Below, one piece after another: positions 9,823 to 56,900 of a stretch of DNA of 64,000 bases. Source of the DNA: an uncultured Gemmatimonadota bacterium. GTDB lineage: Bacteria; JAAXHH01. The position numbers were made by a program, and so were the translations under genes. Position 1 is the first letter of the stretch. Every line of letters starts with the position of its first letter. Location: contig OX638340.1 in NCBI GenBank assembly GCA_951812955.1, forward strand, positions 2,912,001 through 2,976,000. Direction: 5' to 3'. A model generated the notes under the pieces. The model was given only the letters and a program-made list of their open reading frames with translations, did not search any database and had not been told where the DNA came from.

Positions 9823-10914
9823 ATGTCCGAGCAGGTCCAGATTGCCCCGGCGCCGGAACCTGTCCCGCCGTCTCCCGCGCTGCCCGTACTGCAACCGGAC
9901 TCGGGCTATCTCGGGTACGACCGGGCGCTGTTGCGGCCCATGTCCCTCGGCACTAAGCTCCGAGCCTTGTTCAAGTACCTCTGGGTACGATTGAAGGGCG
10001 GACCGATGGCGGTGAACATGGAGGTGACCTATCTGTGCAACGCCACCTGCGATTTCTGTGATTACTGGAAGACGAAACGTTCAGGCAAGCTGGGCGATTA
10101 CGACTACATGGAGGCGCTCAGGAAGCTGAACCCCCTGACGGTCACGCTGACCGGCGGGGAACCCATGATCAACAAGCGACTGCCCGAGGCGGTCAGACGC
10201 ATCAAGGATGGCCTGGGATTCGTTTATATCGGCATGGTCACCCACGGATCTCTGCTGACCGTAGAAAAGGCCATGGCCCTGTGGGATGCCGGCGTGGACC
10301 ACATTTCGATCTCGTTGAACTATATCGGCCGCGAACATGACGAGGAACGGGGTATCGCGGGTTTGTACGAGCATATCTCCACGCTCGTTCCCCAGCTGAC
10401 GGCCCGAGGGGTCAACGTGATCTTCAACACGGTGATCATGCGTGAGAACCTGGACCACGTCGTACCCATCGCGCACCTGGCGCGTTCTATGGGCGCGAAG
10501 GTTTCCTACAGTTGCTACAGCGACTACAAGAATGGGAACGAAACCCACCTTGTGGATCCCGGTCACGAGGAGCAGTTGGAATCCGTGATCGAGGATCTGA
10601 TCTACCAGAAATCCCGATTGGGAAACATCGTCAATTCCGCCTGGTACTTGCGCCGGATCCCCGATTACTTCCAGGATGCGCTTCCAAGGTCCTGCACGGC
10701 AGCGGGCAAGTGGCTGGTGCAACTGACTCCCGACGGCAACGTAAAACCCTGTGCGGAACTGCCCGTAATGTCCGGGTATGCCGATTTCAAGCGGGTTTCA
10801 ACGAAGATCGACTGCAACCGGTGCTGGTACAGTTGCCGGGGTGAGACCGAATCTTCGTTGAAGCTTGTAAGGGTGCTGGAAGGCCTGGGCAGGGCCTGGC
10901 GCAGTAGCGCTTAA
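9823..10914 (+). CDS. Radical SAM enzyme with C-terminal Cys-rich (SPASM/twitch-like) region
   Basis: CNATCDFCDYW CxxxCxxC motif, TLTGGEPM SAM-binding motif. C-terminal C...CNRCWYSCRGE cluster. Pro/Ala-rich 60-aa N-terminal extension. Confidence 0.7.
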   Translation: MSEQVQIAPAPEPVPPSPALPVLQPDSGYLGYDRALLRPMSLGTKLRALFKYLWVRLKGGPMAVNMEVTYLCNATCDFCDYWKTKRSGKLGDYDYMEALRKLNPLTVTLTGGEPMINKRLPEAVRRIKDGLGFVYIGMVTHGSLLTVEKAMALWDAGVDHISISLNYIGREHDEERGIAGLYEHISTLVPQLTARGVNVIFNTVIMRENLDHVVPIAHLARSMGAKVSYSCYSDYKNGNETHLVDPGHEEQLESVIEDLIYQKSRLGNIVNSAWYLRRIPDYFQDALPRSCTAAGKWLVQLTPDGNVKPCAELPVMSGYADFKRVSTKIDCNRCWYSCRGETESSLKLVRVLEGLGRAWRSSA

Positions 10915-13900
10915 ACTACTACCGGCGCCAGTTCCCGGGCGAGGATCTTCCCGGTATGGGACAACAGGGACGCTGCGATATCCTCGGGCGTACCCGCGGC
11001 AACCACGTGACCGCCCCGGTCACCGCCTTCCGGACCTAGATCGACGATCCAGTCGGCCGTCTTGATGACGTCCAGGTTGTGTTCGATGACGAGCACGGTG
11101 TTCCCCTTGTCCACCAGCCTGTTGAGGACGTTCAGCAACTTGCGGATGTCGTCGAAGTGCAGCCCGGTGGTCGGCTCGTCCAGCAGGTAGACGGTCTTGC
11201 CGGTACCCGGCCGCGAGAGCTCCTTCGCCAGCTTGACGCGTTGCGCCTCGCCTCCCGAGAGCGTAATGGCCGACTGGCCGAGCTTGATGTAGTCGAGTCC
11301 CACGTCGTAAAGCGTCTGCAACATACGCCGGATGCGGGGCACGTTCTCGAAGTGCTCCAGGGCTTCGGCCACGGTCATCTCCAGCGTATCCGCGATCGTC
11401 TTACCCTTGTAGGTCACTTCCAGCGTCTCCTTCATGTAGCGCTTGCCGTCGCACACTTCGCAGGTCATCCACACGTCCGCCAGGAAATGCATCTCGATCT
11501 TGCGCACGCCGAGTCCCTGGCAGGCCTCGCACCGTCCAGCGGGCACGTTGAAGCTGAACCGTCGGGGTTCGTAGCCCCGCATCCGAGCCTCCACGGTCCG
11601 GGAGAAGAGCGACCGGATCGGCGCGAAGAGCCCGACGTAGGTGGATGGATCCGACCTGGGGGAATGGCCGATCGGGGTCTGGTCGATGTTTATGACCTTG
11701 TCCACGAACCGCAACCCCTTGATTTCATCGTGGGGTCCAGGGTTTACCTGGGCGCGGTGCAGGGTGGAGGCCAGCACAGGATGAAGGATGTCGTTGACGA
11801 GCGAGCTCTTTCCCGAACCGGACACCCCTGTGACGCAGATGAAAACGCCAAGGGGCAACGTCACGTCGATGTTCTTCAGGTTGTTCTGGCGCGCCCCGAG
11901 GATGCTAAGCCTGTTCCGGCCCGGCTTGCGGCGGTCCCGCGGCACTTCGATGCGAAGCCTGTTTCCCAGGTAACTGCCGGTGAGTGAAGTCTCGAGTTCC
12001 CTGAGGGCGGCGGGGGTGCCTTCGCCCACGATCCGGCCTCCGAACACCCCCGCTCCCGGTCCGAAATCCACCAGGTTGTCGGCATGCTCCAGCGTGTCGC
12101 GGTCGTGTTCGACCATGATCAGCGTATTGCCGAGATCGCGCAGGTTCTCCAGGGCATGGATCAGCCTGAGGTTGTCCCGCGGGTGAAGCCCGATCGTGGG
12201 TTCGTCCAGCACGTAGAGCACGCCGGTCAGCCCCGATCCGATCTGGCTGGCCAAACGGATTCGCTGTGCTTCGCCGCCCGATAGCGAGGGCGCCCGGCGG
12301 TCGAGGGTCAGGTATTCCAGCCCCACGTCGAGGAGGAAGCGCATGCGGTTTCTGATTTCCTTCATCACCTCGCCCACGACTTCCCGCTGCGGCGCCGAGA
12401 GTTTCAGGCCTTCGATGAAGTCCAGGGCACGGTCGGTGGACATGGCGCATAGCGCCGCAATGGACACGCCGTCGATCAGCACGGAAAGGCTTTCGGATCG
12501 GAGCCGTCCGCCTTCACATGCCGAGCAGGGCGTCGGCTGCAGGAGGCGGGCCAGTTCGGGAAAGCGGTTCGCGTAGCGGGCGACCAGTTCCACGGCCGGG
12601 AAGATGCCCCGGAACTGGAAGGACAGGCCGGGGACCCGTTGGTCCTCTATCCACCGGTCGCTGCCATAGAGCAACACCTGGAGCTGTTCTGCCGACAGCG
12701 CTTCAACGGGCGTCTCCAGGTTGAATCCCTGGGTGGACGCCACCAGTTCAAGCAGGTCGAGTATGGACCGTTCGCCCACCGTGCCTTCCTCCCAGATCGC
12801 AGCCGCGGCGTCCCTTATGGATTTCGAACGATCGGGAATCAACAGGTCGAGATCGATGCCGGGCTGGGTTCCGAGTCCCTCGCAATCGGGGCACATGCCC
12901 GCCCGGTGGTTGAATGAGAAGCTCTGGGGCGAGAGTTCGTCGTAACTGACTCCGCAGGCGGGACACGAATAGTACCGGCTGAAGCGGATATCGTGTGGAC
13001 CGGCGGAATCCGGTTCCTGCACCTCGGCGATCAGCAATCCCCCCGATAGGTCCAATGCCGTCTCCACCGAATCGGCCAGGCGCTGTCGGACGTCGCCCTG
13101 CATGACGATCCGGTCTACCACCACGCACAGTTCGTGGCGCCGCCGCCGGTCGATCTGAATGTCCTCTTCGAGCCGCCGCAACACGCCATCGATGCGTACC
13201 CGGATGAACCCGTTCCGGCGGGCCCTGTCCAGAAGGGCATCGTATCCCTCGGCGCCTTCGGGTTCCAGCGGCGCATGCAGCGTGGCGCGGGTCTGCTCCG
13301 GGAGGGTCATGATGCGGTCCACGATCTGGCTGGGCGTCTGCGCGCCGATGGGAACGCGGCAGGCGGGGCAGTGGGGCGCGCCGACCAGGGCGTAGAGTGC
13401 GCGCAGGTACTCGTAGATCTCCGTAATGGTGCCCACCGTGGAGCGTGGGTTCCGGCCCGGCGCCTTCTGTTCGATGGATATGGCCGGGGAAAGGCCGACG
13501 ATATGGTCCACCTTCGGCTTCTGCATCTGCTGGAGGAACTGGCGCGCGTAGGCTGAAAGGGATTCCACGTACCGTCTCTGGCCTTCCGCGTAGATCGTAT
13601 CGAGGGCCAGGGAAGTTTTCCCGGAGCCGGAAACGCCCGTGAACACGGTCATCCGGTCCCGGGGGACAGCCACGGTGAGGTCACGCAGGTTGTGCTCCCG
13701 CGCGCCGCGCACGGTGATCTCCCGTATGTGGCCGTCTCCTGCTGCGTCCTGCCTGACCGGTTTAGGAGCCACGGGGAGCGCCCGGGGCCGAAGCGCCTTC
13801 TCCAGGATCCGGCCCGTGGACGATCCGTCGACGCCCGCCACGGTCTCCGGCGTTCCCTCCGCGATGACGCGGCCGCCCGCGTCGCCGCCCTCCGGGCCCA

Positions 13901-16613
13901 GGTCGATGATCCAGTCGGCCGTCTTGATCACGTCGATGTTATGTTCGATGACAACGACGGTGTTGCCCTTGTCCACGAAGGCGTTCAGCACGGCGAGCAG
14001 ATGGGTGATGTCTTCGAAATGCAGGCCGGTCGTCGGTTCGTCCAGCACGTACATGGTCCGTCCCGTGCTTCGCTTGCACAGTTCACGGCCCAGCTTGATG
14101 CGCTGCGCCTCGCCCCCCGACAGCGTGGGCGCGGGCTGGCCCAGCTTGATATACCCCAGGCCTACGTCGTAGAGCGTCCTCAGCACCCGTGCGATGGACG
14201 GAACGTGCTCGAACAGTTCAAGCGCCTCCTGCACGTCCAGGTCGAGCACGTCGGCAATGGAGCGTCCCTTGTATTTCACCTCCAGGGTTTCCCGGTCGAA
14301 GCGCCTGCCTTCGCAAACGGGACAGGAGACCCACATATCCGCCAGGAAGTCCATCTCCACCCGCGTAGCCCCGTTGCCCTGGCAGGCTTCGCACCGGCCG
14401 CCCCGCACGTTGAAGCTGAACCGTCCCGGCCGGTAACCGCGCAACCTGGCTTCGGGGGTTTCGGCGAAGAGGGAGCGGATCGCGTCGAAGACCTTCGTGT
14501 AGGTTGCCGGATTCGATCTGGGCGTGCGGCCGATGGGGGCCTGGTCGATGTTGATCACCTTGTCCAGGTGCCCGACGCCCTTGAGGCCGTCATGTTCGCC
14601 CGGGTCCGTGCCGGCCTTGTTCAGCAGACGGGCCAGAGCCGCGTACAGGATGTCGTTGATCAGCGAGCTTTTACCGGAACCGGACACGCCCGTTACGCAC
14701 GTAAACCGTCCCACGGGCAGGCGCACGTCCAGGTTCTTGAGGTTGTTCTGACGGGCGCCCTGGATCATCAGCCACTTATCGGCCTCGCCGCGGCGCAAGG
14801 CCGGAATCGGGATCGTCTTCTTCCCGCACAGATACTGCCCGGTCAACGAAGCGGCGCTGGCTGCCACTATGCCGGGGCGGCCTTCGGCCACGATCTCGCC
14901 GCCGTTGACGCCGGCGCCCGGACCAAAATCCACGATGTGGTCGGAAGCCCACATGGTTTCTTCATCGTGCTCGACAATGATGACCGTATTGCCCTGGTCC
15001 CGCAACTGGCCCAGGGTATCCAAAAGCCGCCGGTTGTCCCTGGGATGCAGTCCGATACTCGGTTCGTCGAGCACGTACATCACGCCGACGAGCCCGCGGC
15101 CGATCTGGCTCGCGAGACGTATGCGCTGCGCCTCTCCGCCTGATAGCGTCGGCGCCGTGCGTTCCAGCGAAAGGTATTCGAGGCCCACGTTGAGGAGGAA
15201 GTCGAGCCGGGCGACTATTTCCTTGAGCGCTTCGTCGCCGATCTGGCGTTCGGCATCCGAAAGGGTCAGCTTCCGAAAGAAAGCGCGGATATCCAGTATC
15301 GGCAACCGGCACAGCGCGGCGATGGAGAGGCCGCCCAGGGTGACGGAAAGCGCTTCTGGCTTGAGGCGTTCTCCGCCGCAGCGATCGCATTGGCCTATGG
15401 CCATGTACCGTTCGATCTCGGTCTTGTGCCTGGGGGACTTGAGCGTATGGTACCGTTTTTCTAGGTCGGGAACGACCCCGTTGAACCGGTCCTTGTGCGA
15501 CCACTCGCCGCCCTTCCCGTTGTGGAAGGTGAAGGTGATTCGCTTGTATCCCAGGCCGTACAGCACCACCTTCCGCGCCTCTTCGTCCAACCGTTCCCAT
15601 GGCGTGTCCAGGCTGAAACCCACGTGTTGGGCTATCCCCTCGAAAAAGTGCCGTTTCCACTGGTTGGCGATGGTGCCGAGGGGTTCGATCGCCCCTTCGT
15701 TAATGGACTTCGCCGGATCGGGAATGATGAGCCTGGGTTCGATCCGCATCATGGTGCCCAGGCCGTGACAGTTCGGGCACATGCCCTGGGGGCTGTTGAA
15801 GGAGAACAGTTGCGGCGTGGGCTCCTCGTAACTCAGGTCACACGCGTTGCAGGCGTACCGCGTGCTGAAGAGCAGATCAGAAGTCCGGCCGTCCCCCTCC
15901 ATCTGGACCAACACGGAACCCTGGCTCAGGTGCAACGCGCCTTCCACCGCCTCGACCAGGCGGGTGCGGATGTCCTCCCGCACGACGAGCCTATCCGTCA
16001 CCACTTCGATCGTGTGCCGCATGTTTCGGTCCAGATCCGGATCCTCGGAGAGGTTGACGACGTCGCCGTTCACCCGGGCGCGCAGGTAGCCCTGCCGGCG
16101 CAGGTCCTCGAAGAGGTCCCGGTATTCGCCGCGGCGCCCCTGGATGACCGGCGCCAGTACGAGCAGCCGCGTTCCTTCGGGAAGCGCCAGGATCCGCGCG
16201 ACGATCTGTTCGAGGGTCTGCGCCCCTATCGACCCACCGCATTTCATGCAGTGAGGCGCCCCTACCCGGGCATACAGCACGCGCAGGAAGTCGTAGATCT
16301 CCGTGATCGTCCCGACGGTGGAACGGGGGTTCAGCCCGGCGGTTTTCTGTTCGATGGAGATGGCGGGCGCCAGTCCCGTGATCCGGTCGACGTCGGGTTT
16401 CTGCATCTGGCCGAGGAACTGTCTCGCGTAGGCCGATAGGGATTCGACGTAGCGCCGCTGGCCCTCCGCGTAAAGGGTATCGAAAGCCAGCGAAGACTTG
16501 CCGGATCCGGATACGCCGGTGAAGCAGATCAGTGCGTCTTTCGGCAGATCCAGGCTCACGTTCTTCAGGTTGTGAACGCGGGCCCCTTTGATTTGTATGG
16601 ATGTTGCGGCCAT
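10911..16613 (-). CDS. uvrA: Fused tandem UvrA-UvrA (two complete excinuclease ABC subunit A units in one 1900-aa polypeptide)
   Basis: MAATSIQIKGARVHNLKN...GVSGSGKSSLAFDTLYAEGQRRYVESLSAYARQF is a canonical UvrA N-terminus. It has four Walker A boxes, four LSGGEAQR signatures and multiple Zn-finger Cys clusters. The second full UvrA starts about aa 965 (IREITVRGAREHNLRDL...GVSGSGKTSLALDTIYAEGQRRYV). There is no stop between the units. The track ORF extends to 16667, but the UvrA-like start is ATG 16613. Confidence 0.85.
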   Translation of the reverse strand: MAATSIQIKGARVHNLKNVSLDLPKDALICFTGVSGSGKSSLAFDTLYAEGQRRYVESLSAYARQFLGQMQKPDVDRITGLAPAISIEQKTAGLNPRSTVGTITEIYDFLRVLYARVGAPHCMKCGGSIGAQTLEQIVARILALPEGTRLLVLAPVIQGRRGEYRDLFEDLRRQGYLRARVNGDVVNLSEDPDLDRNMRHTIEVVTDRLVVREDIRTRLVEAVEGALHLSQGSVLVQMEGDGRTSDLLFSTRYACNACDLSYEEPTPQLFSFNSPQGMCPNCHGLGTMMRIEPRLIIPDPAKSINEGAIEPLGTIANQWKRHFFEGIAQHVGFSLDTPWERLDEEARKVVLYGLGYKRITFTFHNGKGGEWSHKDRFNGVVPDLEKRYHTLKSPRHKTEIERYMAIGQCDRCGGERLKPEALSVTLGGLSIAALCRLPILDIRAFFRKLTLSDAERQIGDEALKEIVARLDFLLNVGLEYLSLERTAPTLSGGEAQRIRLASQIGRGLVGVMYVLDEPSIGLHPRDNRRLLDTLGQLRDQGNTVIIVEHDEETMWASDHIVDFGPGAGVNGGEIVAEGRPGIVAASAASLTGQYLCGKKTIPIPALRRGEADKWLMIQGARQNNLKNLDVRLPVGRFTCVTGVSGSGKSSLINDILYAALARLLNKAGTDPGEHDGLKGVGHLDKVINIDQAPIGRTPRSNPATYTKVFDAIRSLFAETPEARLRGYRPGRFSFNVRGGRCEACQGNGATRVEMDFLADMWVSCPVCEGRRFDRETLEVKYKGRSIADVLDLDVQEALELFEHVPSIARVLRTLYDVGLGYIKLGQPAPTLSGGEAQRIKLGRELCKRSTGRTMYVLDEPTTGLHFEDITHLLAVLNAFVDKGNTVVVIEHNIDVIKTADWIIDLGPEGGDAGGRVIAEGTPETVAGVDGSSTGRILEKALRPRALPVAPKPVRQDAAGDGHIREITVRGAREHNLRDLTVAVPRDRMTVFTGVSGSGKTSLALDTIYAEGQRRYVESLSAYARQFLQQMQKPKVDHIVGLSPAISIEQKAPGRNPRSTVGTITEIYEYLRALYALVGAPHCPACRVPIGAQTPSQIVDRIMTLPEQTRATLHAPLEPEGAEGYDALLDRARRNGFIRVRIDGVLRRLEEDIQIDRRRRHELCVVVDRIVMQGDVRQRLADSVETALDLSGGLLIAEVQEPDSAGPHDIRFSRYYSCPACGVSYDELSPQSFSFNHRAGMCPDCEGLGTQPGIDLDLLIPDRSKSIRDAAAAIWEEGTVGERSILDLLELVASTQGFNLETPVEALSAEQLQVLLYGSDRWIEDQRVPGLSFQFRGIFPAVELVARYANRFPELARLLQPTPCSACEGGRLRSESLSVLIDGVSIAALCAMSTDRALDFIEGLKLSAPQREVVGEVMKEIRNRMRFLLDVGLEYLTLDRRAPSLSGGEAQRIRLASQIGSGLTGVLYVLDEPTIGLHPRDNLRLIHALENLRDLGNTLIMVEHDRDTLEHADNLVDFGPGAGVFGGRIVGEGTPAALRELETSLTGSYLGNRLRIEVPRDRRKPGRNRLSILGARQNNLKNIDVTLPLGVFICVTGVSGSGKSSLVNDILHPVLASTLHRAQVNPGPHDEIKGLRFVDKVINIDQTPIGHSPRSDPSTYVGLFAPIRSLFSRTVEARMRGYEPRRFSFNVPAGRCEACQGLGVRKIEMHFLADVWMTCEVCDGKRYMKETLEVTYKGKTIADTLEMTVAEALEHFENVPRIRRMLQTLYDVGLDYIKLGQSAITLSGGEAQRVKLAKELSRPGTGKTVYLLDEPTTGLHFDDIRKLLNVLNRLVDKGNTVLVIEHNLDVIKTADWIVDLGPEGGDRGGHVVAAGTPEDIAASLLSHTGKILARELAPVVV

Positions 16614-16844
16614 GGGAATCAAGCCGGATTCAGCGGGTCGTTGGATCAGGGCGAACGGCGGCGGCACAGCAAGCGAAAGATGCTATACGGGTGTTTAGAA
16701 ATCAAGGTATTTTCAAGGTGGACCGTGAATGGCGGAAAAGACGCTTGTTCTATGCCGTTACCGGAGTTAACGTGGTGTCGGCCGGTCCATCAGAATGCGG
16801 CGCGCCGGCCCGCCGCAGCCGATGTCGGAAACGGGACGATCATC

Positions 16845-28796: not shown

Positions 28797-31700
28797 TCAG
28801 AAGCTCATGCGAGCCAGCAGGCCGATTCGGTGATCGGACGCGCTGCCATGCCGCTCGAGTCGCATACCGGAGAGTTCCAGGGATGCGCCGCTGGCGCGAG
28901 AACCCGATTGGGAGAGTCTGGCGCCCAGCCGCATCCGCCGCCGGTCGTCTCCGAGGAGATACATTTCGCCGAAAGGCGTCATCAACATGCCAATGGACGG
29001 ATACGCGAGCCCGTAACCGACCTCGGCCTTGAACGCACGGGTGTTGTCCCGGCCGTTCACGGATGTACCGGCAAGCGGTCTGTCACGCCACATCATGCCC
29101 GAGTCTCCCGTACCGGCGCCAATACGCGGCGCGATGGACATGGATAGACCGGTCCCGCCCGCACCGGGATTGAGGTAGGCGGCAACGGAGAACCCGTTTT
29201 CGCTGTATCCATCGGCGGTGTGCACCGCCAGGAACCTGCCCTGCGCGTTTACGCCCACCCGGCCGCCTGACAGGCGCAAGCCTCCCGAGACCTCCAGACC
29301 CTGGCCCGTCTGGCCGGTGCCGCCGTCATAACGTCCGGCAACCTGGGCATAGGGCGTGATCGTGGTTCCGCCGGCAAGCGTCGACGTACGTGACCCTTCC
29401 AGGCCGATCCGGACCCGCTGCACGTCGCTTTCGATGTCGCTCAACGACGGGGATTCGCTGTCGGCGGTCGAAAGACGCAACAGGCCGGCGTCCCCGATTA
29501 CATCGAGACCCGTGCCGCCCGTCCCCGCCACCCGCATGCGCGTGCCCACCATGGCCATGCGCATGGAGAGATCGCTCGCAGCATCCTCCACATCGACTTC
29601 GCCGGTGCCGAGACCCACAATCGACCACACTTCCGTAAGACAGGTGCTGCTTGCCCATCGCAGGTATGGCAGCACACTGGTAAGGCGCGATTCCAGGCTG
29701 CCGCTCGCGACCGTTACGTCGTAATCGGACTGGCCCGCCGCGTGCGAAAGGGCAATACCCGCCATCCAGTTGCGCTCCGTGGCCACATCAAAACCGACGT
29801 AAGCCGTCTTCATGTCGCCATCGTAGCTGGTATTCACGTCGGGTTCGCCCTGGAAGTTCTGCAAATCGCCGGCGCCCCAGACAGACCATCGGAGACCTCC
29901 GTTGGCCGTGCCATCCTCCAGCGCGTACGAGAACGAACTCGTGCTCAACAGGTATCCGCTGTTAACGTAGCGCCGGTTTTCGCCGTCGTTCAACAGCGCC
30001 AGGTGTTTCGCCGAAACCTGGCGTCCGTGGCCGGTAAGTCTGGCCAGGGCCGCCACACTGGACGCGAATCCGTCTATCCTGCGACCTCCCACGGTGAATC
30101 CCTGTCCGCCCGTTCCATCGGAGAAGCGGCCGCCGATCGTTGAGGAGACGCTGGACAGCATGTTCCGGCCCATGGCGCTCAGGATGTTCTCGTAGACCAT
30201 CCGTTCCGCCGCGATGGCCGTAACCGTCACGCCGACGGTAAGGCTGGCCTCGCCGGCCGCGTTCCGGGCGGTGACCGTCACTGTGGCGGAACCCTTGCGA
30301 ACGCCTGTTACGGTCAGCGTGGCCGCCGACATAACGGCCGTTGCCACGCTGTTATCGGATGTGGACGCGGTTAAACTCAGATCTGTACCGCTGAACAGCG
30401 CACCCGCGTTGATTGTCTCGCTTTCACCCGAGTCCAGTGATACCGAAGGCGGACTGCCCACGATTGCCGGGGCATCGTAGGAGTCGGTTATTGTGACCGT
30501 CGCGGAATCCAGGTCCTGGCCATCGTAACTCGCCGTGACGATGATCGTCTCTCCTCCGGACTCGTACACATCGTCGTTGATGACCGTGATGGCAAGCTCG
30601 GAAGAACCTTCCGTGGCCTCGCCTGGAATCGTAATACTCAGGTTGCCACGGACGCTGTAGTCATCGCTGCTGGCCGTACCGGATAGCGCAAGCGGGATTA
30701 CCGTCGTGATCGGTATGGCCCCGCTCGTCTGCGTCGCCGTCACGTTCACGGTCTGCGTACCGCCGTCTTCGGACACAGCCTCGGGGGTAACAGAAAGCGT
30801 AATCTCCGGGACGTAGCCGGTCAGATCGAAATAGAATCCTGACCCGATTACGAGTTCCGTCCCGTCGACCATGACGGTTTCCGTGTAACTCACCTTGGGC
30901 GAGCCCGTATCTTCGTCGCCGTCCACAGCCGGGTTGTCGAAGTAATACTCTACATAACCTCCCCCGGCCTGCGCTGCCGCGATAAGCTCACGAGTGTAAT
31001 AGACCCCATTCAGGTCCTGGTCATCGAAAATGTTCATGTTCTCGATCGATGGGTTGGCACCGTTGAAAACGAGCAGGCCGTCTGTTTGCAGGAAAAAAAT
31101 GTAGATCTCACCCAGCCGCCAGTTTCCGTCCTCGACCCGGAAGGCCTCGACGACGTCACTGTGAAGATCGAATCCCACTTCATCGATGGCGCCTTTGTAG
31201 GCTGCTTTGGCCGCCTGGACAAATGACCTGAGGCTTGCCCGGTCCATCACGTCCGCCGCGGTTACGTCTCCAACAGGAAGAGGAGGTACGAGAACGTCCA
31301 GCACCGTGATCGTCGACGACCCGATATCCTCTCCCTCGTAAGTGGCCTTAACCACGATGGTCTCGCCGTCTTCCTCGGCTACGTCGTCGATCACATCGAA
31401 GGTAAGCGTCGTGGAAGCCGACGTGGCATCCCTTGGAATGATGATTTCGAGCGTTCCGTCCGAGGTATAGTCATCGCTTGTGGCCGTACCCTCGAGTGTC
31501 AGGTCGATGATCGTAGCCACCGGCACCGGGTCGTCGGTGAGCGTGGCCGTCACGGTCACCTCCTGGCCGTCTTCGCCTTCGACGAGGGTTTCACGGTCCA
31601 CCTCCAATGTGATCGCCGGGACGTCGTCCACGGGTCTTCGGTAAAAACCGGCGCCCACGACGAAGGTCTGGCCGGGATAAAAATCCGGATATTCAATAGT

Positions 31701-34700
31701 CTCAGCGTAACTCACCTTGGGCGAACCGAGCTCTTCGTCTCCCATGACCGACGGGTCGTCATAGTGGTACTCGACAAATCCACCGCCCCCAATCGCGACG
31801 TTGATGAGGTCTTCAATGAAGCGCTTGCCGTTCAAGTCTTCCAGGTCGATCCGAATGGCGCCTTCCTGCGTTATGTCCGCCCCGTGGAAGAACACGAACC
31901 CTTGCGTTGTCAGGACGAACAGGTAGATGGCGCCTTCCCTGAACGGTCCTCCTTCTTCCCTCAATGCGGCTTTCAGCCTCCCGACCTCCACGCCGCGCGT
32001 TTCGAAGGCCTCAAAAGTCCAGTCTACGGTGCCTCGCACGAAGGCCTTCAGCGTTTCCTTGTCCACCACGTCCTGCGCACGCACAGCTGGCGGATCCGGA
32101 AGCGTGACTTCTGAAACAGCATCGGGGATATCCATGTTGAAGCCGCCTACCAGGATGAAATCACCCACGCCGAACCCGGATGCGTACGAAGTGGCGTAGG
32201 CCACGCGGTTGGGATCGTCATTGGGATCGTTCGGATCATCCCAGGTGAATTCGACGAAACCCCCTCCTGAATTGGCCGCCGCGAGGATCTTCTGAACGAC
32301 TTTTTCTCCTTTGTCGTCTTCCAGGTCGCTAATGTCAATGCCGTCGCGGGTCGGGTCGTCGCCGTGGAAGAACATCTCGCCTGCAATCGTCAGGACCGAA
32401 AGGTACAGGTCTCCTTGTTTCCAATCGCCTTCGGAACGGAACGCGACACCCAGGGCCGGGAGTTCGTTGGCGTCGGTAATGCGTTCCAGGGAATCGGCCA
32501 CAGTTTCGACAAATCCCTTCAGCGTCTCGCGGTCTACTACTTCGCTGGCCACGATCGTTGTTTTTTCCTTCACCGTGATCGTCGCCGACCCGATATCCTC
32601 TCCCTCGTAAGTGGCCTTAACCACGATGGTCTCATTGGCGCCGTCGATCACATCATCCACCACGTCGAAGGTGAGCGTGGTGGAAGCCGCGGTGGCATTC
32701 CTTGGGATAATGACCTCCAGCGTTCCTTCCACGGTGTAGTCATCGGAAGTGGCCGTACCGTCAAGAGACAGGTTGATGATCGTCGCCACCGGCACCGGGT
32801 CATCGGTCAGCGTGGCAGTTACCGTCACTTCCTGGCCGTCACGGCCTTCGACTACGGATTCCGGATCCACGGCCAGCGTGATCTCCGGTACGTCGTCCAC
32901 AGGTCTTCGGTAGAAGCCTGCGCCTACGACGAAGGTCTGCCCGGGATAATAATGCGGGAATTCAACCGTTTCGGCATAACTCACCTTGGGCGAACCCAGC
33001 TCTTCATCACCCATAACCGAAGGATCGTCATAGAAGTACTCGACAAAACCACCACCTGCTACCGCGGTATTTATGAGATCTTCGATAAAGCGCTTGCCGT
33101 TCAGGTCTTCGAGATCGATCCGGATCGCACCTTCCTGCGTCATGTCCGCCCCGTGAAAGAACACGTACCCATTCGTTGTAAGAATAAACAGGTAGATGGA
33201 GCCTTCTCTAAATGGTCCGTCTTCTTGCCTCAAAACGGCTGTCAGTGTCCCGGCCTCGACACCATGCGTCTCGAAAGCGGTAAAGGACCATTCGATCGCG
33301 CTTTTCACGAAAGCCTTAAGACTCTCCTTGTCCACCACGTCCCGTGCCTGGACAGCGGGCAAATCGGGCAGCATACCCTCTTCCGGATCGGGAATGTCCA
33401 TGTTGAAGCCGCCCACCAGGATGAAATCACCCGACCCAACAAAACCGGATGTATATCGGACCGCGTAAGCCAGCCGGTTCGGATCATCATTGGGATCATT
33501 CGGATCATCCCAGGCAAAATCTACGAACGCTCCCTCGGCGTCCGCTGAGATGATATCCTGAACTACTTTATTGGCGTTGTCGTCTTCCACATCGCTTATA
33601 TCGAACCCGTCCCGGGTGGGATCGTCACCGTGGAAAATCAATACGCCTTCAGGGGTGAGCACCGAAAGGTACAGGTCTTCATGTTTCCAATCGCCTTCTT
33701 CTCGGAGGACACCCCACAATCGAGGGACCTCGTTGATATCGGTAACCCGTTCGAGAGAATCCGCCACCATGTCGACGAATGCCTTCAATGTCACATCATC
33801 CTCCACGTCAGCGGCCGTAATACGTCCAGTAGCGTCAAGAATCGACAGCGTGTCGGCCGCCACTTCCTCCAGGTCGTGGTTGGCAGTGACGATGATGGTT
33901 TCGCCGTCCGCTTCCGCTACTTCGTTGTCCGCCACGTCGAACGTCAGTTCCGTGGTCCCTTCCGTCATCTCGGCGGGTATCGTGACGACCATCTCGCCGG
34001 TTACTGTGTAGTCGGTGTTCTCCACGGCCGTGCCCGACAGGGTCAGCGGCATTCGAACCGATACGGGCAATGCACCATCGGCCCGGGTTTGCGTAGCCGT
34101 CACGGTCACGGTCGCGGTCTCGCCCTCGGTCAACACATCGGGGTCTGCGGCCAGCTCGATCGTACCCACATGATCTTCAAGTTCGTCGAAGTATAAACCG
34201 GAGCCAATGATGTAATCGTTGCCATGAAACACAAACTCTTCGGCGTAGCTCAACTTCGGCGAACCGGTATCTTCGTCTCCCATGACATCCGGATCGTCAT
34301 AGTGATATTCGACAAAACCGCCACCTGCCTGTGCCGCGGCGATGAGATCCTGGATGAAGTACTTCCCGTTTACGTCCTGTTCATCCCATGCAGACATGTT
34401 CTGCAGGCTGGCGTTGGCTCCATGGAAGAACCAGTCTCCCTCGGTGGTCAAAACGAACAGGTAGGTGTGTTCGTGCCTCCAGGGGCTGCCTTCCTGCCTG
34501 AAAATATCCAGGTTCGCTGACAAGATGTCGAAACCGTATTGTTCGAGGGCTGTCTGGTAAGTGGTGATGGATCCCTCTACGAACTTTACGAGGGTACCCC
34601 GGTCCATCACCTCGGAAGCCGTGACCTCCGGGTGGGGAAGCTCATCCGGATTTATCGTGGGTGTGGGAGGGCTCGAACCGGAAAGATTCTGGCGGAATCC

Positions 34701-35240
34701 GCCGACCATGATCACCTTCTGTCCGGTTATACCTGAAGTGTAGCTCACGGCATAGGCAGTTTTAGCGGTATCTTCGTCCCCCTGCTCGTCCGGATCATCC
34801 CAGTAGTAATCGACGAAGTCGCCACCCTCCACGTCCGCGGCCGTTAAGAGCGCTTGCACCACCTTTGTGCCCATCGCATCTTCGACATCAGAGATATTTG
34901 CTGTATTTACCGAGTGGTCATTGGCATGAAGCCATACAATACCGCCCGGCAAAAGGATGATGAGGAAGGTGGTGCCGTCATTCCAGTCTTCCTCGTCGCT
35001 GATTTTGTGGATCCATCCGCTGATATCGTTCGGATTGGTAACCGCTTCCGCATCGGCCTTCGCATACAGCACGAACTGCTTGAGGGTCGCGTCGTCCATT
35101 ACCTGGCCGGCCGTAATCGGTTCGACCTGGGCAGCAGCCGGCCCTGCTCCAATGAGTAGGCTTACCACACCCATCATTACCCCTAAAACCAGAGTTGATA
35201 ACATCAATCTATCAGAAATAGAGGAACTCATAATTGGCAT
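28797..35240 (-). CDS. Giant (2147 aa) outer-membrane-anchored surface protein with repeated sCache_2-like and Calx-beta-like domains and C-terminal beta-barrel
   Basis: Signal peptide MPIMSSSISDRLMLSTLVLGVMMGVVSLLIGAGPAAAQ. Seven repeats of the pattern ...YLFVLT..G...FHG......D.....G.......I..A..GGGFVEY.YDDP....KVSYA... (sCache_2-like). Four Calx-beta-like repeats (..VTVTAT......L.LSGTA...DYT......IP...T.G...LTFDV.DD...E..ETI.V). Big_2-like segment. About 550-aa C-terminal Gly/Ser/Ala-rich beta-strand region ending ...ARMSF. Confidence 0.6.
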   Translation of the reverse strand: MPIMSSSISDRLMLSTLVLGVMMGVVSLLIGAGPAAAQVEPITAGQVMDDATLKQFVLYAKADAEAVTNPNDISGWIHKISDEEDWNDGTTFLIILLPGGIVWLHANDHSVNTANISDVEDAMGTKVVQALLTAADVEGGDFVDYYWDDPDEQGDEDTAKTAYAVSYTSGITGQKVIMVGGFRQNLSGSSPPTPTINPDELPHPEVTASEVMDRGTLVKFVEGSITTYQTALEQYGFDILSANLDIFRQEGSPWRHEHTYLFVLTTEGDWFFHGANASLQNMSAWDEQDVNGKYFIQDLIAAAQAGGGFVEYHYDDPDVMGDEDTGSPKLSYAEEFVFHGNDYIIGSGLYFDELEDHVGTIELAADPDVLTEGETATVTVTATQTRADGALPVSVRMPLTLSGTAVENTDYTVTGEMVVTIPAEMTEGTTELTFDVADNEVAEADGETIIVTANHDLEEVAADTLSILDATGRITAADVEDDVTLKAFVDMVADSLERVTDINEVPRLWGVLREEGDWKHEDLYLSVLTPEGVLIFHGDDPTRDGFDISDVEDDNANKVVQDIISADAEGAFVDFAWDDPNDPNDDPNRLAYAVRYTSGFVGSGDFILVGGFNMDIPDPEEGMLPDLPAVQARDVVDKESLKAFVKSAIEWSFTAFETHGVEAGTLTAVLRQEDGPFREGSIYLFILTTNGYVFFHGADMTQEGAIRIDLEDLNGKRFIEDLINTAVAGGGFVEYFYDDPSVMGDEELGSPKVSYAETVEFPHYYPGQTFVVGAGFYRRPVDDVPEITLAVDPESVVEGRDGQEVTVTATLTDDPVPVATIINLSLDGTATSDDYTVEGTLEVIIPRNATAASTTLTFDVVDDVIDGANETIVVKATYEGEDIGSATITVKEKTTIVASEVVDRETLKGFVETVADSLERITDANELPALGVAFRSEGDWKQGDLYLSVLTIAGEMFFHGDDPTRDGIDISDLEDDKGEKVVQKILAAANSGGGFVEFTWDDPNDPNDDPNRVAYATSYASGFGVGDFILVGGFNMDIPDAVSEVTLPDPPAVRAQDVVDKETLKAFVRGTVDWTFEAFETRGVEVGRLKAALREEGGPFREGAIYLFVLTTQGFVFFHGADITQEGAIRIDLEDLNGKRFIEDLINVAIGGGGFVEYHYDDPSVMGDEELGSPKVSYAETIEYPDFYPGQTFVVGAGFYRRPVDDVPAITLEVDRETLVEGEDGQEVTVTATLTDDPVPVATIIDLTLEGTATSDDYTSDGTLEIIIPRDATSASTTLTFDVIDDVAEEDGETIVVKATYEGEDIGSSTITVLDVLVPPLPVGDVTAADVMDRASLRSFVQAAKAAYKGAIDEVGFDLHSDVVEAFRVEDGNWRLGEIYIFFLQTDGLLVFNGANPSIENMNIFDDQDLNGVYYTRELIAAAQAGGGYVEYYFDNPAVDGDEDTGSPKVSYTETVMVDGTELVIGSGFYFDLTGYVPEITLSVTPEAVSEDGGTQTVNVTATQTSGAIPITTVIPLALSGTASSDDYSVRGNLSITIPGEATEGSSELAITVINDDVYESGGETIIVTASYDGQDLDSATVTITDSYDAPAIVGSPPSVSLDSGESETINAGALFSGTDLSLTASTSDNSVATAVMSAATLTVTGVRKGSATVTVTARNAAGEASLTVGVTVTAIAAERMVYENILSAMGRNMLSSVSSTIGGRFSDGTGGQGFTVGGRRIDGFASSVAALARLTGHGRQVSAKHLALLNDGENRRYVNSGYLLSTSSFSYALEDGTANGGLRWSVWGAGDLQNFQGEPDVNTSYDGDMKTAYVGFDVATERNWMAGIALSHAAGQSDYDVTVASGSLESRLTSVLPYLRWASSTCLTEVWSIVGLGTGEVDVEDAASDLSMRMAMVGTRMRVAGTGGTGLDVIGDAGLLRLSTADSESPSLSDIESDVQRVRIGLEGSRTSTLAGGTTITPYAQVAGRYDGGTGQTGQGLEVSGGLRLSGGRVGVNAQGRFLAVHTADGYSENGFSVAAYLNPGAGGTGLSMSIAPRIGAGTGDSGMMWRDRPLAGTSVNGRDNTRAFKAEVGYGLAYPSIGMLMTPFGEMYLLGDDRRRMRLGARLSQSGSRASGASLELSGMRLERHGSASDHRIGLLARMSF
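31300..33820. repeat. Two near-identical tandem 1.26-kb direct repeats inside the giant gene (each encoding Cache-Cache-Calx unit)
   Basis: Protein units aa 474-895 and 896-1313 are about 80% identical. This produces mirrored spurious antisense ORFs (31764..32114 vs 32364..33548). Confidence 0.7.
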
Positions 35241-53914: not shown

Positions 53915-56900
53915 ATGAGTGAAATCGTTACATACCTTGGTGGAAAGACGCTGCTGATTACCGGCGCCACGGGATTCCTCGCGAAAGCGGTCGTGGAAAA
54001 GATCCTGCGGTGCGCGCCGGAGGTCGGCCGCGTATACCTTGTCGTCAGGCCCCGCCGCAAGAAGGACGGCACTACGCTGTCGGCGGCGGAGCGCGTGGAG
54101 GATGAAATACTCCAGTCCGCCGCTTTCGCCCGTTTGCGCGAGATGCACGGCGACCGATTCGCACCATTCATGGCGGAGAAGGTTCATGCTGTCGAGGGGG
54201 ATCTGACCCTGGACCACCTGGGATTGGAGCCGGAACTGTACCGGCTTCTTTCCGAAGAGGTCAATGTCGTAATGACCTGTGCCGCTTCCGTTACCTTCGA
54301 CGAAGAAATCGACGCCGCCCTGCAGCTGAACGCTCTGGGCGCCAGGCGGATGATGGAATTCGCCAGAACGTGCAACCGCGCCATACTCGTCCACGTATCC
54401 ACGGCCTATGTCAATGGCCAGCTCAAGGGGCGCATCCCGGAAGTTCCACCACGGCCGGACTGGTCCATGGCCCAGGAAATGGGGATCAGCGACGCGCCAT
54501 TCGACCTGGAAAAGGAAATCCGGGGTATTTTGGCGAGGGCCGAAGAAATCCATGTTGCGTCACGATCGGCTGTCCAGCAGAAACGGTTCCGTAGGTCAGC
54601 CCTTCAACAGAACGCGCGGCCCACGCAGCGCTGGCTTGACGCCCAGATGGAGACCTTCCGTAAACGCTGGCTGAAGGAACAGCTTATCGAAGAAGGGATG
54701 CGCCGGGGACAGCAGTGGGGCTGGCACGACAGCTACACCTTGACGAAGGCCATGGGCGAACAACTGATCGTCAAGCATCGGGGCGAACTGCCCACGGTCA
54801 TCATTCGTCCGTCCATCGTGGAAAGCAGTCTCGTCGAGCCGGAACCGGGATGGATAGAAGGGCTCAAGGTCGCCGACCCGCTGATCGACGCGGTGAGCAA
54901 GGGCCGCCTGCCGGATTTTCCCGGCGATAAGGACATGATCGTGGACATCATCCCGGTGGACATGGTGGTAAACTCCATGCTGGCCGCCATGGAGCACACG
55001 GTCCGGGAGGGCGGAATCAGCGTGTACCACGTGTCTACGGGCGACCGGAATCCAATCCGATTCCAACAGGCCTTCGAACTTTCCTACGAGTACTTCCTGC
55101 AGCATCCACGCCTGAACCGGAACAACGAACCCATACCCATCCGGCGCTGGACCTATCCGACCCTCGCCCAGTTCAGACGGCGGTACAACCTGCGCTACGT
55201 CTATCCACTGAACACCGCGCTCTGGGTGTTCAACCGCTTCAGCCGCATCACCTTCCTGAATAACTGGAAGCGCAGAATAACCGTGCTGAAATCGGCGATC
55301 TCCCGCATGCTCTACTACGCTTCGATCTACAGTCCCTACACGTCCCTGGAATGCACCTTCGAAACCGGTCGGACGGTCGGCCTGCACGAACGGCTCGGGC
55401 CCGATGACCGGCTGCTGTTCAACGGCGACGTATCCAGAATACAATGGAAGACCTACTTCCAGGATATTCATATTCCAGGGTTGAAGCGCCACGTGTTGAA
55501 GACCGACGAACCCAGGCCCACGGTTACAGAAGAGGAGGAGGTTGCGGAGCGGTCGGGGTTTACCCAGGCGGAGGATGACCCCCTGCCCCACCTCGACACG
55601 TTGACGGATATATTGGCCAAGAGCGCGGATATGTACGGAGACAAGACCGCGATGCAGATGGAGCGTGAGGGGGTATGGGTCCGGTATTCTTTCAAGGACG
55701 TGCACGACCTGGCCGGCCACATGGGCTGGCAATGGCGGTCCGGCGGGCTGCACCCGGGCGACCGCGTCCTGCTGTTTTCGGAAAACAAGCCCGAATGGGG
55801 GATCGCCTGTTTTGCGGGTCTGGTGGCCGGAGCGGTGATCGTGCCCGTAGACCGGCGGTCATCGGCGCAGGAAGTGTGGCGCATTGCCCGGTTCACCGGT
55901 TCGAAGGCTGTCCTGTGTTCGGAAAGCGGTTTCGAGATGCTGAAAGCCTCGGAAGCACCGGACCTGGAGGTCGCTTTCTGGAATATCGACAACTACGGCC
56001 TCCCTTTCGATGCCTCGCGGCCGTCGGCGTCGCCGGTCGCCTTGAACGAGGAACCGCCCGCCTGGGCGCCGGTTCAACCCGATGCGCCGGCCGCCATCAT
56101 GTTTACACGGGGCATGGCTGCGGAGTCGCACGGCGTGGTGCTGTCCCATCGGAATTTCGTATCGAACCTGCTGTCTCTTGCCGAGATTCTGCGCGCCTAC
56201 CGGACCGACCATTTCCTCTCTCTGCTGCCCATGAGCCAGGCCCTCGAGTTCACCGGGGGATTCCTCATGCCCTTCTACGCGGGAGCGACCATTACCTATA
56301 CCGCTTCGGTACGTCCTCGATCCCTGGTCGCCCTGATGGTTGAATCCGAAATCAACTGCCTGATCGCGGCGCCCCGGATTTTCGGACTGATGCACCGGCC
56401 GCTGCAGCGTGCGGCCCGTGAATCGGATACGGACGTGGTTTCCCGCATGCGACTGCTGGTCAGCGGCGGCGGTACGCTCGCGTCGGATCTCTACCACGCC
56501 TACCGCGATTTCGGCCTCACCATACACGAGGGATACGGGCTCACGGAAGCGGCGCCGGTCGTGGCCGTGAACCCCATGGACCGAAGCAAACCGTCCTCCG
56601 TCGGCATCGCCCTTCCGGAGGTCGACGTGCGTATCGCAAATCCCGATGAGGATGGGAAGGGAGAAATCGTCGTGCGCGGGTCGAACGTCATGCTGGGATA
56701 TTTCGAGAACCCGTCGGCGACGGAGCATCGCATCCGCGACGGCTGGCTTCACACGGGGGACATCGGTTACATCGACCGGGACGGCTACTTGTACATCGCC
56801 GACCGCATGGAGCGCAGCCGCGGATCGAAGGATGTACCGGATGGTCGTCCGGGGAACGGCAAGTCCCGCAGCGCCACCGCCTTCTTCGACGTGGACGGAA

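What the first reader, a model, noticed from the sequence alone, without database searches (positions are those of the whole stretch)
10911..16613. Single-chain double UvrA: two complete class-I-like UvrA units fused into one 1900-aa protein
Both halves retain Walker A/B, ABC signatures, Zn modules and the regions corresponding to the UvrB-binding and insertion domains. There is no stop or linker gene between them. UvrA normally works as a homodimer, so this would be a covalent dimer. Fused UvrA duplications have been noted in a few genomes, but as far as I recall they derive from truncated class II-like units. A fusion of two full-length units is unusual, and the two halves have clearly diverged. 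That suggests functional specialisation, repair or resistance-type.
Basis: partly seen in the sequence, partly recalled or inferred. Interest (0 to 1): 0.7.

Follow-up and report, generated by a model that had tools for sequence, protein, structure and literature searches.

The report
Fused double-length UvrA repair protein
One 1900-residue gene really does encode two complete copies of the DNA-damage sensor UvrA joined head to tail, but this fused form is common in many bacterial phyla and has already been noted in Planctomycetes, so it is a genuine, unstudied but not new kind of repair protein.

Summary
Confirmed. Window 10911..16613, minus strand, is one uninterrupted 1900-aa ORF made of two full-length class I UvrA units (aa 3-942 and 964-1895) joined by a 21-aa non-conserved linker. 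Each unit alone passes NCBI's UvrA equivalog cut-off. Each has a UvrB-binding domain, an insertion domain, two Walker A/B and signature sets and 12 zinc cysteines. Both units are under equally strong purifying selection (dN/dS about 0.1), while the linker is relaxed.

It is not an assembly artefact. More than 160 full-length homologues from independent assemblies share the same in-frame layout. N units and C units form two reciprocally monophyletic clades, which points to one old duplication and fusion within this family.

It is not unusual. Among the best 150 cluster representatives in a 1.8-billion-protein library, 110 are complete double UvrAs and 31 of those are full|full. [quoted passage not shown] Chlamydia trachomatis uvrA encodes 1786 aa.

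Best reading: a single-chain UvrA pseudo-dimer acting as the nucleotide excision repair damage sensor, with mild fixed asymmetry between its units. Nothing supports a resistance-type role. Whether the genome also has a single uvrA could not be tested.

New member of a known, uncharacterised kind. Interest is modest.

The parts
10911..16613 (-). Complete CDS of the double UvrA: 1900 aa plus the stop codon at 10911-10913. An alternative upstream GTG start at 16667 would give 1918 aa.
   Evidence: Homologues and the UvrA HMM start at residue 3 of the ATG form.
13788..16607 (-). N unit (aa 3-942): a complete class I UvrA, and the more canonical of the two.
   Evidence: 1477 bits against an HMM of 62 single UvrAs, covering HMM positions 10-945 of 949. 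NF001503 scores 1440.6 bits against a 1147 cut-off. 1222 bits to C. thermocellum UvrA 9gxk, aligned over residues 6-941.
13725..13787 (-). Inter-unit linker (aa 943-963, PRALPVAPKPVRQDAAGDGHI): non-conserved and probably flexible.
   Evidence: The linker is 18-55 aa (median 24) with no conserved sequence across 67 non-redundant doubles. Its dN/dS is 0.31-0.46, against about 0.1 in the units.
10929..13724 (-). C unit (aa 964-1895): a complete class I UvrA that is systematically more diverged.
   Evidence: 1344 bits, covering HMM positions 11-944. NF001503 scores 1320.8 bits against 1147. AF2 model pLDDT 84.8. Best structural matches are class I UvrAs 2r6f, 3uwx and 3zqj over about 945 columns, TM 0.75-0.82.
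15900..16220 (-). UvrB-binding domain of the N unit (aa 132-238).
   Evidence: Pfam PF17760 UvrA_inter, 129.9 bits, profile positions 1-107 of 109.
15408..15737 (-). Insertion (DNA-binding) domain of the N unit (aa 293-402).
   Evidence: Pfam PF17755, 110 bits, profile positions 2-110 of 110.
13017..13340 (-). UvrB-binding domain of the C unit (aa 1092-1199). It carries the family-wide G162E-equivalent change (E1122).
   Evidence: Pfam PF17760, 107.2 bits, profile positions 1-108 of 109. Position analysis.
12594..12854 (-). Insertion domain of the C unit (aa 1254-1340): shorter and more diverged.
   Evidence: Pfam PF17755, 50.4 bits, profile positions 1-91 of 110. Folded with pLDDT about 60-88 in the AF2 model.
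16494..16517 (-). Walker A of the N unit, ATP-binding domain I (GVSGSGKS). The three other Walker A motifs lie at 14667-14690, 13614-13637 and 11805-11828.
   Evidence: Coordinates verified by translation. Invariant across N units, C units and single UvrAs.
16681..16713 (-). Nearly invariant upstream block AAAATACCTTGATTTCTAAACACCCGTATAGCA, 68 to 100 nt before the ATG. Probably a promoter or operator of the gene.
   Evidence: Alignment A2 of the upstream regions of the window, L001, L002, L003 and L016, although coding dS is about 0.45. No Rfam family matched and no sigma-70 consensus was found.

Best explanation
The gene encodes a natural single-chain version of the UvrA dimer, the damage sensor of bacterial nucleotide excision repair (NER).

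Shown by computation:
- One polypeptide carries two complete class I UvrA units.
- All four ATPase sites, six zinc modules, two UvrB-binding domains and two insertion domains are intact.
- Both units are under equally strong purifying selection.
- A short, fast-evolving linker joins them.
- The residues that form the protomer-protomer interface and the DNA 'wedge' in solved UvrA dimers are kept in both units.

Inferred:
- The N and C units fold back on each other through their ATP-binding-I domains to make an intramolecular pseudo-dimer equivalent to UvrA2.
- This scans DNA, uses ATP binding and hydrolysis to test deformability, and loads UvrB through two composite UvrB sites. [quoted passage not shown]
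- Fusion makes dimerisation independent of concentration. It also lets the two protomers diverge slightly: the C unit evolves about 9% faster and differs from the N unit at six fixed positions (three C-derived, one N-derived, two variable among single UvrAs), three of them around the proximal ATP site and interface.
- It most likely serves as the organism's main UvrA rather than as a drug-resistance paralogue.
For: Architecture and motifs.

Fold of the C unit is class I UvrA.

Selection: dN/dS is 0.10-0.125 for the N unit, 0.085-0.13 for the C unit and 0.31-0.46 for the linker, measured against five relatives.

Conservation of the fusion:
- All 120 best hits are full-length doubles with a linker of 15-55 aa.
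- N units are monophyletic at 80% bootstrap, C units at 87%, and N plus C against single UvrAs at 99%.
- N-N and C-C distances correlate at r = 0.96, with 0 of 999 Mantel permutations reaching that value. The two units have therefore evolved as one gene since a single fusion.

Interface and wedge residues. Those of C. thermocellum UvrA (R54, Y55, S58, Y62, Q65, F66, G80, L81, P83, A84, I85, L507, M508, V510; PMC12796330) are conserved in both units.

Role in NER:
- In Tuwongella immobilis the fused UvrA is detected by mass spectrometry together with UvrB, UvrC and UvrD (PMC8567305).
- A 1786-aa uvrA is present in the reduced genome of C. trachomatis, and a double UvrA sits on a 0.82-Mb Kinetoplastibacterium contig. 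This argues that doubles can serve as a housekeeping UvrA.
- The neighbourhood holds unrelated housekeeping genes, with no biosynthetic cluster or efflux partner next to the gene.
Against:
- I could not measure whether an 18-24-aa linker spans the distance from the C-terminus of one protomer to the N-terminus of the other in solved dimers.
- I could not search the rest of the source genome. A separate single uvrA, and the presence of uvrB and uvrC, remain untested. None lies in the 64-kb window or beside any double-uvrA locus.
- Some positions invariant in single UvrAs are changed. K161/G162 in the UvrB-binding domain of the C unit, and R696/T697/N701 of the PIGRTPRSNPATY motif in its signature domain II, differ. 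One unit could therefore be impaired for UvrB or DNA contact.
- No biochemical work on any fused UvrA was found in the held literature.
Confidence: 0.68

Rival explanations
1. Specialised paralogue. The double UvrA coexists with a canonical single UvrA and has a distinct job, such as tolerance of particular adducts or intercalators, or a stress-specific repair route. This would resemble class II UvrA proteins such as DrrC, Ecm16 and UvrA2.
For: - UvrA paralogues with non-NER roles are well documented (PMC9328131).
- The C unit has family-specific substitutions in its UvrB-binding domain and in the DNA-contact motif of signature domain II.
- Whether a second uvrA exists in this genome could not be tested.
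- Single UvrAs do exist in some members of the same broad groups: L071 (Planctomycetia) and L079 (Kiritimatiellia).
Against: - Both units pass the UvrA equivalog cut-off and keep the UvrB-binding domain, whose absence defines class II.
- The fold matches class I better than class II.
- There is no resistance or biosynthetic neighbourhood.
- The planctomycete paper treats the fusion as 'the UvrA protein', and it is expressed with UvrBCD.
- Doubles occur in minimal genomes.
Confidence: 0.17
2. Inter-chain assembly. The two units of one chain do not pair with each other. Two or more chains associate (N with N', C with C', or N with C') to give a four-unit or larger complex with properties different from UvrA2.
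For: - The interface residues are identical in both units, so homotypic and heterotypic pairings are all chemically possible.
- Linker geometry could not be checked.
Against: - The linker is always present and is at least 18 aa, as expected if it must span a defined distance within one pseudo-dimer.
- Fixed N/C differences sit at interface positions (V509/T1463; position 84 is T or A in N units but A in C units). This fits a dedicated heterotypic N:C interface.
- These are only suggestive.
Confidence: 0.12
3. Artefact. Two adjacent uvrA genes were merged by a sequencing or assembly error, such as a missed stop codon or frameshift.
For: None found.
Against: - The same continuous frame is seen in 162 full-length homologues from NCBI, ENA, JGI and Logan assemblies, including long-read chromosomes of 3.9-8 Mb.
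- Linker lengths differ only by whole codons.
- There is no Met or other plausible start at the beginning of the C unit.
Confidence: 0.01

Closest known systems
Fused (double) UvrA of Planctomycetes, e.g. Tuwongella immobilis (PMC8567305)
   Same: It has the same architecture: two uvrA genes fused, twice the E. coli length. Planctomycete and Gemmataceae proteins (P0075, P0105, P0112, P0114, L006, L007) are 52-60% identical over the full length. They fall in the same N-unit and C-unit clades as the window protein. The protein is expressed alongside UvrB, UvrC and UvrD.
   Different: The window protein comes from a lineage labelled Latescibacterota or Gemmatimonadota. It lacks the roughly 350-aa repeated C-terminal extension found in many planctomycete and armatimonadote versions.
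Canonical class I UvrA (E. coli, G. stearothermophilus 2R6F, C. thermocellum 9GXK, M. tuberculosis 3ZQJ)
   Same: Each unit is a complete class I UvrA. The N unit scores 1222 bits against 9gxk, aligned end to end. The C unit is 52-54% identical to 2r6f, 3uwx and 3zqj. All catalytic, zinc, wedge and dimer-interface residues are present.
   Different: The canonical protein is a chain of about 940 aa that forms a non-covalent homodimer. Here the two protomers are covalently joined and non-identical (56% identity).
Chlamydia-type double-length UvrA (C. trachomatis CT333, 1786 aa; NCBIfam NF001885/PRK00635, 1809 positions)
   Same: It is a double-length protein annotated as excinuclease ABC subunit A. 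A Chlamydiales MAG protein (P0166, 1885 aa, full|full) has its N unit nearer the window family's N clade and its C unit nearer the C clade.
   Different: The window protein scores 1399 bits against NF001885, whose cut-off is 3054, so it is not that equivalog. Both window units align best to the first half of that model, which implies a much more derived second half in the Chlamydia type. Many representatives of about 1780-1810 aa lack the insertion domain in unit 2. That PRK00635 is built from Chlamydia sequences is my recollection and was not tested.
Class II UvrA (D. radiodurans UvrA2, DrrC, Ecm16) and their roughly 1600-aa tandem doubles
   Same: They share the ABC-ATPase core and zinc modules, and tandem doubles of these also exist: 22 representatives, for example in Acanthopleuribacter pedis.
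   Different: [quoted passage not shown] Both window units have this domain. Structural similarity to 2vf7 and 7sh1 is lower: 36% and 30% identity, TMq 0.68 and 0.62.

Membership tests
Class I UvrA (NER damage sensor), applied to each unit | End-to-end match above the curated equivalog threshold (NCBIfam NF001503 / TIGR00630) | tested here: met
   The N half scores 1440.6 bits and the C half 1320.8 bits, against a cut-off of 1147. TIGR00630 gives 1385.7 and 1275.9 bits against 729.8.
Class I UvrA, applied to each unit | UvrB-binding domain present (its absence defines class II) | tested here: met
   PF17760 scores 129.9 bits (aa 132-238) and 107.2 bits (aa 1092-1199). The C-unit model aligns over about 945 columns to full-length class I structures.
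Class I UvrA, applied to each unit | Insertion domain present | tested here: met
   PF17755 scores 110 bits in the N unit and 50.4 bits in the C unit, against a cut-off of 23.2. The C-unit copy is shorter, covering profile positions 1-91 of 110.
Class I UvrA, applied to each unit | Two intact ABC ATPase sites (Walker A, Q-loop, signature, Walker B, H-loop) and three Zn modules | tested here: met
   All motifs and all 12 Cys are present in the window protein. They are 96-100% conserved across 67 N units and 67 C units, except Zn module 1, which is lost in a few homologues.
Class I UvrA | Binds UvrB and damaged DNA, and supports UvrABC incision | not testable with these tools
   The only indirect evidence is co-expression of a fused UvrA with UvrB, UvrC and UvrD in T. 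immobilis.
Class I UvrA | uvrB and uvrC present in the same genome, and no other uvrA | not testable with these tools
   No uvrB, uvrC or second uvrA is in the 64-kb window.
Fused double UvrA, full|full family (Planctomycetes-type) | One ORF with two complete units in the order N-unit clade, linker, C-unit clade | tested here: met
   The window N and C units fall in the respective monophyletic clades with planctomycete, verrucomicrobial, armatimonadote, latescibacterial and gemmatimonadote members.
Chlamydia-type double UvrA (NCBIfam NF001885) | Score above the equivalog cut-off of 3054 bits | tested here: not met
   1399.3 bits.
Class II UvrA / resistance-type (DrrC, Ecm16) | Lacks the UvrB-binding domain and first Zn module, and is often encoded in a biosynthetic gene cluster | tested here: not met
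   Both units have the domain and the Zn1 cysteines. The neighbours are unrelated housekeeping genes.

The most novel reading that the evidence does not exclude
The covalent fusion may have produced a functionally asymmetric sensor. The C unit carries fixed changes next to the proximal ATP site (S519T, E551R), at the interface (V509T), in its UvrB-binding domain (G162E) and in the DNA-contact motif of signature domain II. It could have become a regulatory or 'clamp' protomer, leaving the two composite UvrB-loading sites non-equivalent. The enzyme might then load a single UvrB, or load UvrB with a preferred polarity. A symmetric homodimer cannot do this.
Probability: 0.2. Interest if true: 0.6.

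Novelty: new member of a known kind. Interest (0 to 1): 0.3.

Why it matters
The gene is a natural, conserved single-chain UvrA 'dimer'. Its practical value is as a tool. The two protomers are encoded separately within one chain, so each of the four ATPase sites, each UvrB-binding domain and each DNA-contact surface can be mutated in one protomer only. That would address long-standing questions about the roles of proximal and distal sites and of protomer asymmetry in damage recognition and UvrB loading, which are hard to test with homodimers.

In evolutionary terms, the fusion marks one old event shared by proteins labelled Latescibacterota/Gemmatimonadota, Zixibacteria, Planctomycetota, Verrucomicrobiota and Armatimonadota. 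Several other double-UvrA architectures also exist. As a discovery it is modest. The architecture is already in the databases, has been mentioned in print, and is most probably an ordinary housekeeping repair protein.

Tried and rejected
- Literature on UvrA classes. The Goosen & Moolenaar 2008, Timmins 2009 and Pakotiprapha 2008 papers are not held. The first search was swamped by UVRAG papers. Other searches gave only class I/II descriptions, until led to the planctomycete statement. A phrase search found no other paper that states the fusion.
- Exact look-up of the window protein in public assemblies. Neither the ATG form nor the GTG form is on record. The closest is P0001 at 98% identity.
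- Naming complete genomes that carry close homologues. P0054 and P0060 lie on unnamed long-read metagenome contigs.
- Second uvrA, uvrB or uvrC. None lies in the window or beside any double locus. The whole genome could not be searched.
- Full-chain structure or pseudo-dimer model. The chain exceeds the 1200-aa limit, so only the C unit was modelled.
- Promoter, terminator and Rfam scans around the gene gave nothing above background. An inverted-repeat scan of the upstream region found only a GC-rich palindrome outside the conserved block.
- The C-terminal extension of planctomycete doubles has no Pfam match.
- Orthology between the window family and distant doubles (Chloroflexota, Heimdallarchaeota, class II tandems) could not be resolved by distances or the NJ tree.
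- Artefact hypothesis: rejected (see rival explanations).
- Resistance-type hypothesis: rejected on domain content and gene context.

Full report
**1. Observation**

The coordinates hold one long ORF on the minus strand. It runs 10911..16667 from the first GTG. The translation has no stop or frameshift. GC content is unremarkable for the window.

Each half is a complete UvrA unit:
- Scanned alone, each half matches the NCBIfam UvrA equivalog NF001503 end to end, at 1440.6 and 1320.8 bits against a cut-off of 1147.
- Pfam finds one UvrB-binding domain (PF17760, 129.9 and 107.2 bits) and one insertion domain (PF17755, 110 and 50.4 bits) in each half.
- The halves are 56% identical over 950 aa.
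- Four Walker A, four LSGGE signatures, four Walker B, four H-loops and all 12 zinc cysteines are present.
- The N unit aligns over residues 6-941 to C. thermocellum UvrA (9gxk, 1222 bits).
- An AlphaFold2 model of the C unit (pLDDT 84.8, pTM 0.75) matches full-length class I UvrA structures over about 945 columns: 2r6f, 3uwx and 3zqj, TM 0.75-0.82, 52-54% identity. It matches class II UvrA2 and Ecm16 less well, at 36% and 30% identity.

**2. Real gene, not an artefact**

- All 120 best hits among 5.8 billion proteins are full-length doubles of 1880-2350 aa, apart from one truncated 1229-aa hit (P0039), at 58-98% identity over 99-100% of the query for the full-length ones.
- The closest 90% cluster holds 23 members from independent assemblies. 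Eleven of the 15 listed members are 1898-1918 aa, and some sit on contigs of 2.5-3.9 Mb.
- A scan of one genome per GTDB species returned 17 full-length or near-full-length doubles plus a truncated one.
- Against five relatives, dN/dS is 0.10-0.125 for the N unit, 0.085-0.13 for the C unit and 0.31-0.46 for the 21-codon linker. Both units are thus functional and equally constrained.
- The linker is 18-55 aa (median 24) with no conserved sequence.

**3. Source and context**

The nearest sequences carry the labels Latescibacterota or Gemmatimonadota. Neighbours are unrelated housekeeping genes:
- a radical SAM gene, convergent, overlapping the stop codon by 4 bp;
- a phosphodiesterase;
- MlaC;
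- GFO/IDH/MocA oxidoreductases;
- a short-chain dehydrogenase.

No uvrB, uvrC, second uvrA, biosynthetic cluster or efflux system lies in the 64 kb. About 70-100 nt upstream of the ATG there is a nearly invariant 33-nt block shared with four relatives. It is presumably a promoter or operator. It matches no Rfam family and no sigma-70 consensus.

**4. Evolution of the fusion**

I built an HMM from 62 single UvrAs. With it, every one of the 119 full-length doubles among the 120 hits shows the same asymmetry: the N unit scores roughly 55-190 bits (typically 100-150) higher than the C unit.

An NJ tree of 67 non-redundant doubles and 61 singles (916 columns, 100 bootstraps) gives:
- monophyletic N units (80%);
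- monophyletic C units (87%);
- a split of all double units from the singles (99%).

N-N and C-C distances correlate at r = 0.96, with 0 of 999 Mantel permutations reaching that value. The C unit evolves about 9% faster. Within this family there was therefore one duplication and fusion, and the two units have travelled together since. The family includes proteins labelled Planctomycetes, Verrucomicrobia, Armatimonadota, Latescibacteria and Gemmatimonadota. One caveat applies: the singles were selected by shared peptide patterns and are biased towards Firmicutes, Actinobacteria and Chloroflexi.

**5. How common are double UvrAs?**

An exhaustive HMMER search of 1.84 billion cluster representatives, using the C unit as query, listed 150 best hits. 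Of these, 110 are complete doubles:

| Architecture (unit 1 \| unit 2) | Representatives |
|---|---|
| full \| full, as here | 31 |
| full \| unit without insertion domain | 40 |
| tandem class-II-like units, no UvrB-binding domain in either (about 1600 aa) | 22 |
| smaller classes | 17 |

Named examples:
- full|full doubles in Chlamydiales, Chloroflexota and Heimdallarchaeota MAGs;
- a full|no-insertion double on a 0.82-Mb Kinetoplastibacterium contig;
- a class-II tandem in Acanthopleuribacter pedis.

Whether these distant doubles share the window family's fusion event is unresolved. Fusions of two full-length units are among the commonest types.

**6. Prior knowledge**

[quoted passage not shown] It detects all four UvrABCD proteins of Tuwongella immobilis by mass spectrometry.
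- C. trachomatis ct333 (uvrA) is 5361 bp and encodes 1786 aa (PMC6686042).
- NCBIfam holds an 1809-position 'excinuclease ABC subunit A' model, NF001885. The window protein does not reach its cut-off: 1399 bits against 3054.
- I found no biochemical or structural study of any fused UvrA in the held library. The classic review papers on UvrA classes are not held.

**7. Mechanism**

In solved UvrA dimers the protomers meet through ATP-binding domain I. The contacts are R54, Y55, S58, F66, G80, L81, P83, A84, I85, L507, M508 and V510, and residues Y62, Q65 and F66 form a wedge that enters the DNA. [quoted passage not shown] All of these residues are conserved in both units of the window protein and across the family.

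I therefore infer an intramolecular N:C pseudo-dimer that works like UvrA2. It would have four ATPase sites and two composite UvrB sites. Dimerisation would be independent of concentration, and the two protomers would be free to diverge.

The fixed asymmetry is small. Only six positions differ consistently between N and C units:
- I29/T989
- G162/E1122, in the UvrB-binding domain
- V509/T1463, at the interface
- S519/T1473, next to Walker B
- E551/R1505, next to the H-loop
- F772/Y1726

The C unit also has softer changes in the PIGRTPRSNPATY motif of signature domain II.

Not shown:
- the intramolecular pairing itself;
- whether the linker can span the required distance;
- UvrB binding;
- whether this is the only uvrA in the genome.

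**8. Verdict**

The gene is a new member (Latescibacterota/Gemmatimonadota lineage) of a known, widespread but experimentally uncharacterised family of fused full-length UvrAs. It is most likely the cell's NER damage sensor. Interest is modest at 0.3. Its main value is as a natural single-chain system for dissecting protomer asymmetry in UvrA.

Noticed in passing
P0029, P0075, P0098, P0105, P0112 (about 2250-2350 aa) and P0065/P0096 (about 2118 aa); not in the window: Many planctomycete and armatimonadote double UvrAs carry a roughly 350-aa C-terminal extension made of two roughly 170-aa internal repeats (motifs PW..[DN]GR.WH and DTPAFR.FL). The 2118-aa forms have one repeat. There is no Pfam match at E<=1, so this is an uncharacterised domain fused to UvrA.
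   Followed up: partly
window 16681-16713 (minus strand), also about 16734-16750 and 16766-16771: A nearly invariant block, AAAATACCTTGATTTCTAAACACCCGTATAGCA, lies 68-100 nt upstream of the uvrA start. It is conserved in four relatives although coding dS is about 0.45. It is probably a promoter or operator. It matches neither the sigma-70 consensus nor any Rfam family.
   Followed up: partly
window 28797-35240 (minus strand): A 2147-aa ORF with seven Cache-type sensor domains, a Big_2 domain and a weak autotransporter beta-domain match. This is an unusual architecture.
   Followed up: no
window 53915-57535 (plus strand): A 1206-aa fusion of a fatty-acyl reductase-like domain (NAD_binding_4/Sterile), an AMP-binding adenylation domain and a HAD hydrolase domain.
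   Followed up: no
P0173 cluster (1916 aa), P0167 (1915 aa), P0250 (1809 aa): Double-length UvrAs are also annotated in Heimdallarchaeota (Asgard archaea) MAGs, in Chloroflexota, and on the 0.82-Mb contig labelled Candidatus Kinetoplastibacterium crithidii. Distances do not resolve whether these share the window family's fusion event.
   Followed up: partly
window 9823-10914 (plus strand) against 10911-16613 (minus strand): The convergent radical SAM gene and the double uvrA overlap by 4 bp at their 3' ends. No terminator-like site lies between them.
   Followed up: no
L018-L080 single-uvrA loci: uvrB lies immediately upstream of uvrA in 17 of the single-uvrA loci, but in none of the double-uvrA loci L001-L019.
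   Followed up: yes
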